A stretch of DNA of 64,000 nt from an uncultured Candidatus Saccharibacteria bacterium (GTDB lineage Bacteria > Patescibacteriota > Minisyncoccia > Phycocordibacterales > WO2-35-19): contig CAZFHL010000001.1 in assembly GCA_964519145.1 (NCBI GenBank), positions 682 to 64,681 of the forward strand, written 5' to 3'. Positions 12,237 to 58,173 of the stretch are shown piece by piece (positions within the stretch are counted from its first letter, which is position 1; every line of letters begins with the position of its first letter). The notes below the pieces were generated by a model. That model was given only the letters and a program-made list of their open reading frames with translations, did not search any database and had not been told where the DNA came from. The position numbers and the translations under genes are program-made.

Positions 12237-12384
12237 TTAATATTTTGATTTAAAAAATTCCAATGCAATTATGCATTGGAATTTTATTTTATATAGATAA
12301 TTGTTATGGGTTCAATCTATTGCTCATATAATATATTATGTTATTATCTTATGCGGATAGATCAGTTTAAGGAGTAAAATAGCT

Positions 12385-12745: not shown

Positions 12746-12976
12746 TTGGAGGTCTCTATGAGAGTATTAGAGAATAATAATTACATTGAGATTATTTGTG
12801 TCCGTTGTGGTTCAAAACTTGCAGTTAATGTCGAAGATATAAAATATCATGAAATACATCATCATTGTTCTGCAGAGTTTTATGTTTGCTGTGGAGCTTG
12901 TGGTAGGCGTACTGGTGTAGATTCTAGTCGTATTCCAAAAACTTGGATTAGAAAAATTATTTCTGATGATTTTTAA
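12746..12976 (+). CDS. hypothetical zinc-ribbon protein
   Basis: CVRCGSKL...CCGACGRR Cys pairs. SD ggaggtctctATG. Confidence 0.35.
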   Translation: MEVSMRVLENNNYIEIICVRCGSKLAVNVEDIKYHEIHHHCSAEFYVCCGACGRRTGVDSSRIPKTWIRKIISDDF

Positions 12977-13108
12977 ATTTAAAAAATTTCGGTACAATTG
13001 TGTACCGAAATTTTTATATATTTAAATTACCAATAATAATCTTTAGATAAAATATAAATTGATTTTTATAACTTCAAGTATTAACATCAAATTAGATTTG
13101 AGGAGCTT

Positions 13109-22797: not shown

Positions 22798-22817
22798 GTA
22801 AAAATATGGTATTTTAG

Positions 22818-22943
22818 CTTCAAAAGTCCTAGAACATAAAACCTTTTTGGGGCCTAGCGAGTTTGACGAGACGAGCTCGAGGAATTTTTTAGCAAAAAAA
22901 TATCCGTGGTCCAAAAAGGTTTTATCGAGAAAGACTTTTGAAG
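22818..22943 (-). repeat. interspersed structured repeat, copy A (core in reverse orientation)
   Basis: Core gcctagcgag...agctcgaggaattttttagcaaaaaaatatccgtgg. Arms cttcaaaagtcctag.../...gacttttgaag are self-complementary. Confidence 0.7.
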
Positions 22944-22963
22944 CAGTTTATATATAATATTTT

Positions 22964-36028: not shown

Positions 36029-36065
36029 TAAATCTCTTTCAAAAGTTTTTATTATTTTGAATTAA

Positions 36066-36183
36066 AAAACTCTTTCTCATCACACCTTTTTGAACCACGG
36101 ATATTTTTTTGCTAAAAAATTCCTCGAGCTCGCTTCAGTCAAGCTCGCTAGGCTTCAAAAAGGTATGATTTCGATGAGTTTTG
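36066..36183 (+). repeat. interspersed structured repeat, copy B
   Basis: aactctttctcatcacacctttttgaa-CCACGGATATTTTTTTGCTAAAAAATTCCTCGAGCTCGcttcagtcaaGCTCGCTAGGC-ttcaaaaaggtatgatttcgatgagtt. Confidence 0.7.
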
Positions 36184-36197
36184 TAATTTAAAATAAT

Positions 36198-36228
36198 AAA
36201 TCCCCGGTTATAAAAACCGGGGATTTTA
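36198..36228. terminator. bidirectional Rho-independent terminator between convergent genes
   Basis: aaatccccggtt-ataaaa-accggggatttt with A and T tracts on both sides. Confidence 0.75.
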
Positions 36229-42635: not shown

Positions 42636-42762
42636 CTCTTTCAAAACTCGTCGAAATCATACCTTTTTGAAGCCTAGCGAGCATAACTCTCGCGAGCTCG
42701 AGGAATTTTTTAGCAAAAAAATATCCGTGGTTCAAAAAGGTGTGATGAGAAAGAGTTTTGAA
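42636..42762 (-). repeat. interspersed structured repeat, copy C (reverse orientation)
   Basis: Core gcctagcgagcataactctcgcgagctcgaggaattttttagcaaaaaaatatccgtgg. Arms ctctttcaaaactcgtcgaaatcatacctttttgaa/ttcaaaaaggtgtgatgagaaagagttttgaa. Confidence 0.7.
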
Positions 42763-42829
42763 ATTTTAAGATGAGAAACACTCTTAGATTTAAATTGCTT
42801 TTAGGTTTTGTATTTATTATTATTGGTAT

Positions 42830-44617: not shown

Positions 44618-44746
44618 TTTCAAAACTCTTTCTCATCATACCTTTTTGAACCACGGATATTTTTTTGCTAAAAAATTCCTGCGAAGCTGCGCCAGTCGCG
44701 CTCGCTAGGCTTCAAAAAGGTATGATTTCGAGGAGTTTTGAAAAGA
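44618..44746 (+). repeat. interspersed structured repeat, copy D
   Basis: tttcaaaactctttctcatcatacctttttgaa-CCACGGATATTTTTTTGCTAAAAAATTCCTgcgaagctgcgccagtcgCGCTCGCTAGGC-ttcaaaaaggtatgatttcgaggagttttgaa. Confidence 0.7.
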
Positions 44747-45691: not shown

Positions 45692-45825
45692 GCAAACCGT
45701 CTTTCTGGTATTAGTATTTCTGTGCACGGATATTTTTCTGGTGAAAAATTCCTCGTGCTCGCTCCGTCGAGACTCGCAAGGCACAGAAATACTAATACCA
45801 GAAAGACGGTTTGTAATAAATCTGA
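45692..45825 (+). repeat. interspersed structured repeat, subtype 2, copy E (perfect 30-bp inverted-repeat arms)
   Basis: aaaccgtctttctggtattagtatttctgtgc-ACGGATATTTTTctggtgAAAAATTCCTCGTGCTCGCTCCGTCGAGACTCGCAAGGCAC-agaaatactaataccagaaagacggttt. Confidence 0.7.
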
Positions 45826-46999: not shown

Positions 47000-47143
47000 A
47001 TATAGTAGAAATTGGAAATAGTTTTTCAGGTGGTCATAGTTAAAAGTTACTTACAAATCAAAGAGTGATTCAAAGAAATTAAGTATTTTTTAGTTATGAC
47101 CACTACCAGAGGTGGAGGTCAAACAGAAAGGAGGCTGACGATG

Positions 47144-47770
47144 AATGACATCCTCAGCCAAGCTCTCGAGGGGTTCATCGGACCCCTTAGACAGCTCATG
47201 ATTAACCTGCTCGGCCCAAACGGGCCAGAGTGGGGAGAGGAACTGAAGAAGTTTCTCCGAAAGGAGCCGACATGGTCGGCTCCGAAAATCCTCCAATTTG
47301 TGTCAGAGGTGGTGGTCCCCGCCACCTCGCAGTTCGTTCGGAGGGAGAAGTTCGTCGTCGCCACCTCGGCCTCGGCCGAGGTGAAGATCAGCTGGATTGG
47401 AGGAAATTTCTCCAGCTGGTTCCTTGCCGGTGACGGCAAGGTCGAGGAGGTAGGTGGGGAGACCACCCTCCTCGCCCATCGGTTGACCGAGAGGTCAACC
47501 GATGGGCCGATCATCGCCGAGCTGGGTGGCGAGAAGGTGGCGGAGACCACCCTCGTCGAGATGTTCGCCCTGCTGAAAAAGCAGGGTCGGGGTCAGGAGG
47601 GTACCCTCCTGACCAACAGGTACGCGAATGTCTTCTACATTCGCGACCGTGCGAATGTTCTTCGCACAGTTGACTGCTACTGGCACGGCGTTGGCTGGGG
47701 TGTGGGTGCCTACGAGGTTTCCCGTCCGTACCCGTGGGGTGTGGGCTATCAGATCTTTTCCCGTAGGTAA
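47144..47770 (+). CDS. DGR target (variable) protein, GC-rich, C-terminal VR; fold unassigned
   Basis: SD gaaaggaggctgacgATG at 47144. The track ORF starts at 47096 without an SD. The C-terminal 35 aa are encoded by the VR. About 60% GC against about 30% for the genome. No signal peptide. Not a recognisable CLec RGGSW pattern. Confidence 0.6.
   Translation, partial: NDILSQALEGFIGPLRQLMINLLGPNGPEWGEELKKFLRKEPTWSAPKILQFVSEVVVPATSQFVRREKFVVATSASAEVKISWIGGNFSSWFLAGDGKVEEVGGETTLLAHRLTERSTDGPIIAELGGEKVAETTLVEMFALLKKQGRGQEGTLLTNRYANVFYIRDRANVLRTVDCYWHGVGWGVGAYEVSRPYPWGVGYQIFSRR
47661..47766 (+). repeat. DGR variable repeat (VR)
   Basis: 106 bp with 90 of 106 identical to the TR. 15 of 16 mismatches fall at TR adenines (VR positions 47672, 47678, 47684, 47691, 47699, 47700, 47705, 47706, 47711, 47729, 47738, 47739, 47747, 47764, 47766). 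One falls at a non-A position (47724 G vs T). Confidence 0.8.
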
Positions 47771-47852
47771 TTTGAGTCTTAGGTTCTGACCCTTTGACTC
47801 TTTGACCCCTTGATACTTTGCATTCGTGCACGGTCTCAGGGGGTCTTTTTTT
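47771..47852 (+). promoter_or_regulatory. GC-rich hairpin/terminator 3' of VR (putative DGR target-recognition element)
   Basis: gaccccttgatactttgcattcgtgcacggtctcagggggtc + T7. 6-bp GC stem with inner palindrome cgtgcacg. Preceded by a direct ctttgac x3 motif. Confidence 0.45.
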
Positions 47853-48115
47853 ATACTCCAAAAACACATATAATTATTTTGAAATTATGTGTTACAGAAA
47901 AGTTAAAATTTTAGTTTTTCTGTCATGGTTTTAAAATATTTATAATGAGAGTTGTGTTGGATAAATCTTATACAAGAGTGTTATAAATATTTTTCAAAAA
48001 AATTAAAAGTTGGTATATGAAACTAATGGACTTTTATGTCTAGGGTAAGATTCAATCTCTTATGATTTAAGGGGTGGTGGAATGGGTGGTTTTATATACG
48101 AAAAGGTTTGTTTTA

Positions 48116-48221
48116 TTCGCACAGTTAACTGCAACTGGAACGGCGATGGCTGGAATGTGAATGCCAACGAGGTTTCCCTTCCGAACCCGTGGAATGTGGG
48201 CAATCAGATCTTTTCCCGAAA
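48116..48221 (+). repeat. DGR template repeat (TR)
   Basis: Adenine-rich counterpart of the VR. AAC/AAT codons in TR correspond to D, Y, H, G and R codons in VR. Flanked by AT-rich sequence contiguous with avd and RT. Confidence 0.8.
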
Positions 48222-48224
48222 CTA

Positions 48225-48554
48225 TTATTTTTCTCCTGTATTTACAGGAGTTTTTTGTTTTAGATTTTCTTGAAGACCTTTTCTCCATCCACCTAACATT
48301 TTACCTATTTCATCTAAATCAAGGGAAACTTTTATATATTTTTCATTTGGTACAAGTTTGCTTTCCCATGCAAGTTGCATAAAGAATTTTAGATTATCTA
48401 GTTTTGATATTGTTTTAGATAAAAATAATATTTTTTGTTCAGATACTAGATAAACAGAAGCAAAAGTTAATTCTAAAACATCTAAGAAAGATTGTTCTAT
48501 TCTGTTTCCAATACCAAATCTTTCTATCTTTGGAAAATCTCTATGAATAATCAT
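48225..48554 (-). CDS. avd: Avd-like accessory variability determinant (four-helix-bundle, PF05635-like)
   Basis: 109-aa basic protein. C-terminal DEIGKMLGGWRKG matches the Bordetella phage bAvd motif EVGRILGSWIARVNRKG. Preceding L..L..F..LA helix also matches. Oriented opposite to TR and RT. Confidence 0.55.
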   Translation of the reverse strand: MIIHRDFPKIERFGIGNRIEQSFLDVLELTFASVYLVSEQKILFLSKTISKLDNLKFFMQLAWESKLVPNEKYIKVSLDLDEIGKMLGGWRKGLQENLKQKTPVNTGEK

Positions 48555-48659
48555 CCAGTTTTTGTAAACTTCTTTTTCTTTTGATAAAACTTTTGGTAAA
48601 GAGTTTGTCGGGGGGGGGTAAACTATTTGTCATATTTTATGTTCTAATTTTAAGTTATA

Positions 48660-57852: not shown

Positions 57853-58028
57853 AAGCCAGTCGTGTGCGGGGCAAGAGGAGGTTTGTCCCGCACCTCATAT
57901 TAGAATCAGATGTCTATGGTTTTGATAAGAGGTTATAAGTTAGCAGAGATTTTTGAAATAATTCTGAGTTCTAAAATGAACTTTAATGAAATGCTTCAAA
58001 AGTCTTTCTATAATAAAATCTTAATACT

Positions 58029-58065
58029 AAAACACAAAAGATGCCCAAAGCATCTTTTGTGTTTT
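58029..58065 (+). terminator. Rho-independent terminator
   Basis: aacacaaaagatgc-ccaaa-gcatcttttgtgtttt. Confidence 0.7.
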
Positions 58066-58173
58066 AATAAAAATGTAATATTTTCTATACAATATTTTTA
58101 AATAAATAATAGTTGACTTTTTAACTTTACTATTTTAGTCTTTTTTTAGTTAGTTCGTTGAAAAGGAGTGTGT

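What the first reader, a model, noticed from the sequence alone, without database searches (positions are those of the whole stretch)
45692..45825. Subtype-2 repeats: identical 60-bp core with copy-specific perfectly complementary 18-30 bp arms
Copies E (45692-45825) and F (56878-57007) share GTGCACGGATATTTT.(ctggtg/gttggtac)AAAAATTCCTCGTGCTCGCTCCGTCGAGACTCGCAAGGCAC. E is flanked by aaaccgtctttctggtattagtatttctgtgc and its exact reverse complement. F is flanked by ttacataacat...gtaccagtattcatgtgc and its exact reverse complement. The two sets of arms are unrelated in sequence. Perfect, copy-specific palindromic arms could be target-site-derived, as in MITE insertion with a palindromic target. 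They could also be maintained by gene conversion within each hairpin.
Basis: seen in the sequence. Interest (0 to 1): 0.5.

Follow-up and report, generated by a model that had tools for sequence, protein, structure and literature searches.

The report
Structured hairpin repeat of Patescibacteria genomes
The two "subtype-2 repeats" are diverged sister copies of an apparently undescribed 120-150-base hairpin repeat, with a conserved branched tip on a freely varying stem, that litters the genomes of many candidate-phyla-radiation bacteria, even inside essential genes, and most likely spreads as selfish DNA.

Summary
E (45692-45814) and F (56878-57008) share a 63-nt tip that differs at 4 bases, which are two compensated base pairs. 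E has a perfect 33-34-bp stem. F has 12 bp, a 7x7 internal loop, then 19 bp.

One claim is wrong: the arms are not unrelated. Anchored on the core they are 59-65% identical, with the same layout and only compensated differences.

E and F belong to one family with seven copies in the window. It also occurs in at least 115 loci of Patescibacteria genomes. The family has a long variable stem capped by a conserved 55-57-nt three-way junction of two small hairpins, with strong covariation and no Rfam match.

- Copies lie in either orientation, between genes and in frame inside PheT, SecA, TsaD, Tgt and others.
- They are nearly absent from 551 kb of related genomes.
- No neighbouring gene family is enriched.
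- The mismatch spectrum indicates that one specific strand, the complement of E as written, is the folded one.

Best reading: a non-autonomous, structure-dependent selfish hairpin element, like Rickettsia palindromic elements or REPINs but with the conserved part at the tip. Its arms are kept complementary by selection and by template switching within the hairpin. The mobilising enzyme and the origin of the arms remain unresolved.

The parts
45692..45814 (+). Copy E, whole hairpin in the orientation of the covariance model. The strand inferred to fold is the complement, the window - strand.
   Evidence: 89.6 bits; DNA fold -46.2 kcal/mol, z -15.1.
45693..45725 (+). E 5' arm of stem P1 (33 nt). 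It contains TCTTTCT at the position where other copies have the 5' strand of the internal loop.
   Evidence: 100% complementary to 45781-45813.
45726..45780 (+). E conserved core (55 nt). It consists of junction AC, hairpin P2 at 45728-45752 (GGA, bulged T 45731, ATTTTTC, loop TGGT), junction T 45753, and hairpin P3 at 45754-45780 (CGTGC..GCAAG with an internal loop and a CGTC-type tip).
   Evidence: Sequence; covariation on 79 and 122 family members.
45781..45813 (+). E 3' arm of P1. It is the exact complement of the 5' arm. The loop position reads AGAAAGA, so the loop is closed.
56878..57008 (+). Copy F, whole hairpin. It consists of outer stem 56878-56889 / 56997-57008, a 7x7 loop 56890-56896 (TTTCTCG) / 56990-56996 (ACTCAAC), inner stem 56897-56915 / 56971-56989, and core 56916-56970.
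   Evidence: 85.8 bits; z -9.7.
22817..22944 (-).
   Evidence: 89.9 bits.
36048..36200 (+). Copy B (subtype 1). Its arms are 47 nt and include a copy-specific outer extension. It lies between convergent genes.
   Evidence: 92.6 bits.
42639..42763 (-). Copy C (subtype 1), between the DEAD-box helicase and ABC transporter genes. It is absent from the syntenic relative L117.
   Evidence: (82.6 bits).
44618..44743 (+). Copy D (subtype 1), between the ABC transporter and rhodanese-like genes. It is absent from the syntenic relative L117.
   Evidence: (77.9 bits).
277..386 (-). Copy G, a diverged seventh copy upstream of tRNA-Gln. The base of P2 has changed from GGA/TCC to GCA/TGC, a compensated change.
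   Evidence: (58.9 bits, 295-378).

Best explanation
E and F are two diverged sister copies of a non-autonomous, structure-dependent selfish (mobile) hairpin repeat that is widespread in Patescibacteria.

The unit is a 120-150-nt hairpin. It has a long stem (P1, 20-47 bp) whose sequence is free to vary as long as it pairs. In about a fifth of copies P1 is interrupted about 18 bp below the tip by a conserved asymmetric 7x7 loop. The stem is capped by a conserved 55-57-nt three-way junction with two small hairpins. P2 is A/T-rich with an invariant bulged base. P3 is G/C-rich with tandem mismatches.

Shown:
- the anatomy and its covariation;
- multicopy, patchy, lineage-specific distribution;
- insertion in either orientation, between genes and in frame within essential genes;
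- no linked gene;
- much stronger nucleotide conservation of the core than of the host gene;
- a strand-asymmetric mismatch spectrum.

Inferred:
- The core is the recognition module for a trans-acting enzyme. That enzyme handles one folded single strand (the complement of E as written). This strand is more likely ssDNA than RNA, in the manner of HUH/Y1 transposases on REP or IS200/IS605 hairpins.
- Only copies that still fold can propagate. This explains why stems vary by compensated changes.
- In addition, the two arms of a long quasi-palindrome correct each other by template switching during replication. That would make E's stem perfect by overwriting the ancestral internal loop with the complement of its 5' strand.
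For: - Family and structure. There are 7 copies in the window and at least 115 loci in Patescibacteria genomes. 89.5% of cells are paired against 69% in shuffles and 39-56% when partners are slid, with 543 double-change cells. P2 base pairs are also compensated in copies not selected by the search pattern. Unpaired core positions diverge by 0.15 per site against 0.40 for stems, and double to single changes run 3.5:1.
- Selfish or mobile behaviour. Orientation relative to neighbours is ++ 29, -- 23, divergent 17, convergent 16 and inside an ORF 15. Copies sit in frame in PheT, SecA, TsaD, Tgt, UvrD, MnmA and Dus, using all five stop-free frames of the core. 551 kb around the orthologous gene in 80 relatives hold one weak hit. 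The syntenic relative L117 lacks copies C and D. The same hairpin occurs at different loci. Neighbours are ordinary housekeeping genes, 145 Pfam families with at most 2 members each.
- Constraint at the nucleotide level. In orthologous pheT copies the core is 93% identical (95% at third codon positions), against 66-68% (46-48%) for the flanking coding sequence.
- Strand specificity. Among isolated P1 mismatches, A.C outnumber G.T by 32 to 8 (p 2e-4). Pyrimidine-pyrimidine outnumber purine-purine by 27 to 7 (p 8e-4) on the strand as written. On the complement these are G.T wobbles and purine-purine pairs.
- Correction between arms. E and F differ in stems only by compensated changes. E is the only one of 119 copies with the complement of the 5' loop motif in its 3' arm.
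- Quasi-palindrome template switching itself is established knowledge (Ripley 1982; work of the Lovett laboratory), cited from memory.
Against: - No transposase, recombinase or parent element was found, and no target-site duplication or defined termini (one search was uninformative).
- Orientation relative to local GC skew is only weakly biased (73 vs 47). This is unlike the strong lagging-strand bias known for IS200/IS605 elements.
- A strand-specific constraint combined with random genomic orientation is not cleanly predicted by any known class.
- The extreme conservation of the core across many lineages could also mean a host function.
- Some data suggest that arms are made from flanking DNA rather than carried along: pheT allele lengths and the similarity of the 5' arm to an allele without the core, and terminator-like outer arms.
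- No expression data or population polymorphism data were available.
Confidence: 0.55

Rival explanations
1. Core-only insertion into pre-existing palindromes, with arms built from the target. In this view the mobile unit is the 55-57-nt core, perhaps with about 10 bp of inner stem. It lands in the loop of an existing hairpin such as a terminator. Alternatively, one flank is converted into the inverted copy of the other after insertion. The long arms would then be target DNA.
For: - Outer arms of several copies look like intrinsic terminators split at their loop: L038, L019, L035 and L015.
- Window copy B and the 'AATAGCTCTTCTC' subfamily have copy-specific complementary extensions outside the conserved part.
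- pheT alleles with the core are 51-78 nt longer than allele L199 without it. L199 carries AATATTTCTCCAGAT where L200 has the 5' arm AATGCTTCTCCAGAA, a 12 of 15 match.
Against: - The arms of E, F and L021 are homologous.
- Copies A-D and L016/L045 carry the same arms at different loci.
- The syntenic empty sites in L117 show no palindrome, although that relative is distant.
- Copies are as frequent between divergent genes, where no terminator is expected, as between convergent genes: 17 vs 16.
- L199 may be a remnant left after loss of the core rather than a true empty site.
Confidence: 0.15
2. A functional RNA. This could be a cis-acting mRNA element (terminator, stabiliser or processing site), or a multicopy small RNA whose conserved tip binds a protein and whose stem can have any sequence.
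For: - Three helices show strong covariation.
- On the complementary strand the conserved mismatches become G.U wobbles, tandem G.A pairs and a bulged A, which are typical of RNA motifs.
- All seven window copies lie 11-73 nt after a stop codon.
Against: - There is no orientation preference relative to flanking genes, whichever strand is taken as sense (29 vs 23).
- Copies lie in frame inside essential genes in both orientations.
- E and F have no U-tract or terminator signature.
- Related genomes almost lack it, so it is not a housekeeping RNA.
- Wobble pairs are rare overall, about 1-2% of pairs.
- There is no Rfam family and no conserved promoter, because the flanks are not conserved.
Confidence: 0.15
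3. A DNA-level host signal. This could be a cruciform or hairpin bound by a chromosomal protein involved in supercoiling, replication, segregation or DNA uptake, analogous to the proposed host roles of REP/BIME.
For: - The core sequence is conserved far beyond the neutral expectation across many lineages.
- Pairing is almost exclusively Watson-Crick, so both strands can fold.
- The distribution is dispersed and mostly intergenic.
Against: - Presence is patchy, with near absence in relatives of the same gene neighbourhood.
- The mismatch spectrum is strand-asymmetric.
- Copies sit inside coding sequence.
- Spacing is neither regular nor strongly oriented relative to GC skew.
Confidence: 0.1
4. 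An element removed at the RNA level (intron-like or bypassed), so that copies inside genes never reach the protein.
For: - Patescibacteria are known, from my own knowledge (Brown et al. 2015), to carry unusual insertions in rRNA genes that are absent from the mature rRNA.
- The long stem would bring the two ends together.
Against: - Every copy found inside a gene keeps the reading frame open.
- The frames used are exactly the five stop-free frames of the core, never the sixth (and reading of the core). This fits translation, although copies that break a frame would have been missed.
- Most copies are intergenic.
Confidence: 0.03

Closest known systems
Rickettsia palindromic elements (RPE; Ogata et al. 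2000, cited from memory)
   Same: Both are 100-150-nt palindromic, non-coding, multicopy repeats with no known transposase. Both are found between genes and inserted in frame in housekeeping protein genes, where they add a peptide segment.
   Different: No sequence relation is expected, and none was tested. RPE copies are conserved along their whole length. Here only the apical 55-57-nt branched core and an internal loop are conserved, and the stem varies by compensated changes. The host range is a different superphylum.
REP / REPIN elements and their RAYT (Y1) transposases
   Same: Both are short, structure-forming repeats recognised as folded single strands. Both form long hairpins, show lineage-specific expansions, have some copies inside genes (PMC3733652, abstract) and may have host-adapted roles.
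   Different: REPs are 20-40-bp palindromes with a conserved unpaired GTAG or CGTC tag at one end, and in a REPIN the conserved REPs form the stem (PMC3733652). Here the stem is the variable part and the tip is conserved. CGTC occurs only as the usual loop of P3. No RAYT gene was seen next to any copy.
[quoted passage not shown]
   Same: Both are small, non-autonomous and multicopy, fold into a hairpin, and include subfamilies that share arms and core at different loci.
   Different: The terminal inverted repeats of a MITE are its conserved transposase-binding part, and they are flanked by target-site duplications. Here the terminal parts are the least conserved, and no duplication or parent insertion sequence was found.
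IS200/IS605-type single-strand transposons and their miniature derivatives
   Same: Both involve small imperfect hairpins with an extrahelical base that are recognised on one strand only. This matches the strand asymmetry and the invariant bulge in P2.
   Different: Those elements carry similar hairpins at both ends, insert next to a fixed tetra- or pentanucleotide, and show a strong orientation bias relative to replication. Here the two small hairpins differ from each other, no fixed flanking motif was found, and the GC-skew bias is weak.
Integron attC sites
   Same: Both are recombination-type hairpins defined by structure rather than sequence, with an unpaired central region, extrahelical bases and use of one strand.
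   Different: attC sites conserve the basal R/L boxes (RYYYAAC/GTTRRRY) and vary at the tip, and they lie in cassette arrays next to an integrase gene. Here the opposite part is conserved, the boxes are absent from E and F, and the neighbours are housekeeping genes.

Membership tests
MITE | Short, non-coding and multicopy within a genome | tested here: met
   There are seven copies of 110-150 nt in 64 kb, and many genomes have several loci.
MITE | Terminal inverted repeats conserved among copies and shared with an autonomous insertion sequence | tested here: not met
   The arms are the least conserved part, diverging 0.40 per site against 0.15 for unpaired core positions. No transposase is found among the neighbours.
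MITE | Target-site duplication flanking the element | tested here: inconclusive
   No excess of direct repeats of 3 nt or more was found at the stem boundary tested (a slight excess at 2 nt, 18 of 117 vs about 10 expected). That boundary falls at the internal loop, so the outer ends are not defined.
Rickettsia palindromic elements | Palindromic repeat found both between genes and in frame within protein-coding genes | tested here: met
   Open reading frames of PheT, SecA, TsaD, Tgt, UvrD, MnmA and Dus run through the element. Pfam families of PheT (including B5 and FDX-ACB), SecA and Tgt match those reading frames. At least 10 PheT homologues carry it.
Rickettsia palindromic elements | Sequence homology to an RPE family, and a Rickettsia host | not tested
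   No RPE library was available. The hosts here are Patescibacteria, so this is an analogue and not a member.
REP/REPIN-RAYT | A 20-40-bp palindrome with a conserved unpaired GTAG or CGTC tag at one end (PMC3733652) | tested here: not met
   There is no conserved tag at the base of P1. The flanking positions show no motif beyond the loop. CGTC is only the loop of P3.
REP/REPIN-RAYT | A RAYT gene in the genome, flanked by the repeats | not testable with these tools
   Whole genomes were not available. No such gene appeared among the 25 commonest of the 145 Pfam families found in 104 of the 197 neighbouring reading frames or in the 50 larger window reading frames scanned.
IS200/IS605-derived miniature element | Activity on one strand only | tested here: met
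   The mismatch spectrum is strand-asymmetric: 32 vs 8 and 27 vs 7.
IS200/IS605-derived miniature element | Strong orientation bias relative to the direction of replication | tested here: not met
   The split relative to local GC skew is 73 vs 47, and 4 vs 3 in the window.
Integron attC | Conserved R''/R' boxes RYYYAAC...GTTRRRY at the base, in a cassette array with intI | tested here: not met
   The ends of E (GCAAACC...GGTTTGT) and F (CATAACA...GTTATGT) do not fit. The neighbours are housekeeping genes.
Any Rfam RNA family | Match to a curated covariance model | tested here: not met
   Only two tRNAs reach the gathering score. At E-value up to 10, only generic microRNA-precursor hairpin noise far below threshold is found.
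Intrinsic terminator | G+C-rich stem of 5-20 bp, small loop and a U-tract | tested here: not met
   No terminator-like site was found at E. E and F are followed by TTTGTAA and ATATATT. The stems are 31-34 bp with a 55-nt branched tip.
TIGR-Tas guide arrays of Patescibacteria | Tandem arrays of repeats processed to 36-nt RNAs, next to a tas gene (PMC12045711) | tested here: not met
   The copies are single and dispersed, kilobases apart, and no linked gene family was found.

The most novel reading that the evidence does not exclude
The conserved 55-57-nt three-way-junction core could be the true mobile and recognised module of a new kind of single-strand-dependent element. Its long arms would be built, or rebuilt, in place from the DNA next to the insertion point by fold-back or template-switch synthesis. 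It would be moved by an as yet unidentified enzyme specific to Patescibacteria. That would explain several things together: copy-specific perfect arms, a strand-specific mismatch spectrum with random genomic orientation, pheT alleles that grow by only one core length, and copies nested in terminator stems.
Probability: 0.15. Interest if true: 0.8.

Novelty: new variant of a known kind. Interest (0 to 1): 0.58.

Why it matters
If correct, this is a superphylum-wide family of structured selfish DNA that has gone unnoticed in the small, streamlined genomes of candidate-phyla-radiation bacteria.

Practical consequences:
- It breaks metagenome assemblies, since several matches end at contig ends.
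- It produces spurious small 'hypothetical proteins'.
- It inserts peptides into essential proteins such as PheT, SecA and TsaD.

Biological consequences:
- A core that is conserved more strongly than the essential genes hosting it, and constrained on one strand only, points to a specific unknown partner that reads a folded single strand. That partner could be found by phylogenetic profiling.
- The family is also a natural data set on how long hairpins keep their arms complementary.

Tried and rejected
- Rfam at gathering and at permissive thresholds: nothing.
- tRNA or tmRNA relation: none.
- Phage origin or carriage: the core pattern is absent from viral contigs and E has no match in phage records.
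- 'Guide' hypothesis, that the arms match other DNA: inner-arm stretches of E (18-20 nt) and F (19 nt) have no exact match in viral contigs, and the 18-nt stretch of E has none in the 196 fetched loci.
- Linked gene: nearest-neighbour reading frames were collected for the 122 copies (197 frames). The 104 scanned fall in 145 Pfam families, none with more than 2 members and no transposase among the 25 families listed.
- The reverse transcriptase in the window belongs to a diversity-generating retroelement with its own template and variable repeats. I do not link it to the hairpins.
- Terminator reading of E: no match.
- attC, TIGR array and retron (two short hairpins, no long msd stem, no adjacent RT) were considered and rejected on anatomy.
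- Target-site duplication search: uninformative, because the outer ends are not defined.
- Extending the source contig and finding near-identical strains: window proteins are singletons on one 73-kb contig, and look-ups failed or gave a 1.4-kb contig. No true empty site for E or F could therefore be obtained.
- Literature searches for a description of this element in Patescibacteria found none in the held library.

Full report
**What is at the coordinates.**
E spans 45692-45814. It consists of two 33-nt arms that are 100% complementary (45693-45725 and 45781-45813) around a 55-nt core.

F spans 56878-57008. It has a 12-bp outer stem, a 7x7 internal loop (TTTCTCG / ACTCAAC) and a 19-bp perfect inner stem around the same core.

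The shared tip is identical at 59 of 63 positions. The four differences are two compensated base pairs at the top of a small hairpin.

The 39-nt core string occurs twice against 0 expected. As single strands the elements fold at z = -15.1 (E) and -9.7 (F) relative to shuffles.

Anchored on the core and without gaps, the 5' arms match at 22 of 34 positions and the 3' arms at 20 of 34. Chance would give about 29%. The inner 19 bp match at 15 of 19, and all four differences are compensated. Both copies share the layout of outer stem, loop position and 19-bp inner stem. In E the loop position reads TCTTTCT on the 5' arm and its exact complement on the 3' arm.

**One family, seven copies here, many genomes.**
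The window is a bacterial chromosome of about 31% G+C carrying rpoB, rpoC, dnaG, rpoD and similar genes.

Nearly all are in Patescibacteria assemblies: Paceibacterota, Nomura-, Taylor-, Zambryski-, Wildermuth- and Vogelbacteria, and bins labelled Saccharibacteria. Almost every locus has its own complementary arms of 15-60 bp next to the core.

I aligned 79 canonical copies and wrote down a structure:
- P1, the long stem.
- Junction AC.
- P2: GGA, one bulged base, a 7-bp A/T stem and a 4-nt loop.
- Junction U.
- P3: CGNGC..GCN'AG, a 2x2 pyrimidine loop, a 4-bp G/C stem and usually a CGUC loop.

On that alignment 89.5% of cells pair, against 69% in column shuffles and 39-56% when partners are slid. 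There are 543 double-sided changes.

A covariance model built on it finds seven copies in the window. These are E, F, A (22817-22944, -), B (36048-36200, +), C (42639-42763, -), D (44618-44743, +) and a diverged copy at 277-386 (-). In that last copy the base of P2 has changed from GGA/UCC to GCA/UGC.

Rfam has no matching family.

**How the family varies.**
Unpaired core positions diverge by 0.15 per site and stems by 0.40 per site. Double changes outnumber single changes 3.5:1 overall, and 0.9-1.6:1 even among close pairs, where independent mutation would give about 0.1:1.

About a fifth of copies carry a conserved asymmetric internal loop. CTT(T/A)CTC occurs on the 5' arm in 21 copies against 1 for its complement. 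TC(A/G)ACG occurs on the 3' arm in 12 against 0. The loop lies mostly 17-18 nt below the core. F has this loop. E is the single copy of 119 in which the 3' arm carries the complement of the 5' motif.

**Behaviour in genomes.**
- Orientation relative to the nearest long reading frames is unbiased: ++ 29, -- 23, divergent 17, convergent 16.
- Fifteen hits lie inside long reading frames, and most of these are real housekeeping genes. They are PheT (two orthologues), TsaD (two), SecA, Tgt, UvrD, MnmA and Dus. Pfam families for PheT (including B5 and FDX-ACB), SecA and Tgt match those reading frames.
- The core has no stop codon in five of its six frames. All five are used by intragenic copies, and the sixth never is (and direct reading).
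- In 120 PheT homologues one linker carries the element in three different frame and orientation states in different lineages. It also carries several other recurrent inserts.
- Between two pheT orthologues the flanking coding sequence is 66-68% identical (third positions 46-48%). The arms are 72-74% identical. The core is 93% identical (third positions 95%).
- Of the 197 nearest-neighbour reading frames collected for the 122 copies, the 104 scanned fall in 145 Pfam families. None has more than two members, and no transposase is among the 25 families listed.
- The pattern is absent from viral contigs and phage records.

**Relatives without it.**
Eighty metagenomic loci carry the orthologue of the rhodanese-like gene next to E, at 53-73% identity and 551 kb in all. 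They contain a single weak model hit.

The one syntenic relative, L117, has the same helicase, ABC transporter and rhodanese gene order with spacers of a few tens of nucleotides. It has no palindrome where the window has copies C and D.

No syntenic neighbour exists downstream of E. The window's proteins are singletons on one 73-kb contig, so a true empty site for E or F could not be obtained.

**Which strand folds.**
Wobble pairs are rare, about 1%. Among isolated mismatches in P1, de-duplicated by arm similarity:
- A.C outnumber G.T by 32 to 8 (p = 2e-4).
- Pyrimidine-pyrimidine outnumber purine-purine by 27 to 7 (p = 8e-4).

On the complementary strand these are G.T(U) wobbles and G.A-type pairs. 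The conserved loops likewise become GA-rich there. So the complement of E as written is the strand that is folded, or at least spends time single-stranded.

Genomic orientation is nevertheless close to random relative to genes. It is only weakly biased relative to local GC skew (73 vs 47). That combination argues against a cis-acting mRNA element and against classic lagging-strand IS200/IS605 behaviour. It fits a strand-specific free intermediate.

**Origin of the arms.**
Two kinds of evidence point in different directions.

Arms travel with the core in these cases:
- E, F and L021 are homologous.
- Copies A-D share arms.
- L016 and L045 have identical hairpins in different flanks.

Some arms look recruited from the surroundings:
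- Several copies have terminator-like outer stems split at the loop: L038, L019, L035 and L015.
- Copy B, and a subfamily with AATAGCTCTTCTC, have copy-specific extensions.
- In pheT, alleles with the core are only 51-78 nt longer than allele L199, which lacks it. L199 has AATATTTCTCCAGAT where L200 has its 5' arm AATGCTTCTCCAGAA. L199 could equally be a remnant left after loss of the core.
- L197 carries the core inverted between arms that look homologous to those of L200. This suggests the core was flipped by recombination between its own arms.

**Interpretation.**
The best-supported reading is a non-autonomous, structure-dependent selfish hairpin element. It is analogous to Rickettsia palindromic elements and to REPINs, but with the conserved recognition module at the tip and a free stem.

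The steps that are shown are the anatomy, the covariation, the distribution, the in-frame intragenic copies, the conservation excess and the strand asymmetry.

The steps that are inferred are as follows:
- Recognition of the folded single strand by a trans-acting enzyme, more likely acting on ssDNA than on RNA.
- Maintenance of arm complementarity by selection for foldability.
- Quasi-palindrome template switching, an established mutational mechanism that I cite from memory. It would account for E's perfect 34-bp stem.

Rivals are core-only insertion into palindromes, a functional RNA, a DNA-level host signal and an element removed at the RNA level. They are listed with their tests.

No paper in the held library describes this element. 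TIGR arrays of the same bacteria are a different thing, namely tandem arrays of 36-nt guide RNAs.

Noticed in passing
window 47096-49655: This looks like a diversity-generating retroelement. ORF 47096-47770 has no Pfam hit and ends in a variable repeat at 47658-47763. A template repeat lies at 48113-48218. Nearly every difference between the two is an A in the template copy. A reverse transcriptase gene follows at 48660-49655 (RVT_1, E 2.8e-18). G+C is locally raised.
   Followed up: partly
PheT homologues P0001-P0120 (linker between ...LDEF and FKMWS...); loci L028, L092, L197-L200: The same linker of phenylalanyl-tRNA synthetase beta carries at least five other recurrent inserts in different lineages. 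Examples are ASPDAFAQVLGSP..RPDHSQKHTGSA, AESFLNGLAGVGDPENRGPEK, NSLTFLQPSAGTFRPQN, PPRLSGTPPQAGGEG..PPLLVEEG and VKNSGAFALGDIGQGTHDA. These are probably other repeat families translated in frame, which would make the site an insertion hot spot.
   Followed up: no
L197:1958-2041 versus L200:153-236: At the same pheT site the core is inverted in L197. The arms, read in gene orientation, still resemble those of L200 (12 of 16 in the 3' arm). The core may have been flipped by recombination between its own arms.
   Followed up: partly
L023, L043 (P3 region of the element); also L035, L044, L076, L095, L096, L109, L115: The tip of P3 tolerates insertions of 15-100 nt. In L023 and L043 the insert looks like another small repeat (ccttacagggacagtacaccttt...), that is, a nested element.
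   Followed up: no
window 36104-36186, 42659-42743, 44661-44743: Copies B, C and D are about 95% identical in the arms and P2 but have quite different P3 tips (GCTTCAGTCAAGC, GCGAGAGTTATGC, GCGAAGCTGCGCCAGTCGCGC). The tip is locally hypervariable.
   Followed up: no
L010, L017, L022, L032, L047, L071, L084, L086: Many matches are cut off by contig ends, so the repeat appears to break metagenome assemblies. Public annotations also-78-aa 'hypothetical proteins' that are translations of the element (P0125-P0141).
   Followed up: partly
window 5634-5787 and 7488-7640: A 150-nt direct repeat pair (73-88% identical), 1.85 kb apart, on the strand opposite to most genes. It is unrelated to the hairpin family.
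   Followed up: no
window 12240-12298 and 12969-13027: Two related A/T-flanked hairpins (71% identical), each following a small gene. They look like ordinary bidirectional terminators that share sequence.
   Followed up: no
window 57009-58167: A 1.1-kb stretch after copy F has no long reading frame. It holds a G+C-rich hairpin (57042-57070) nested inside a wider inverted repeat (about 57013-57122). There is no Rfam match at E-value up to 0.1.
   Followed up: partly
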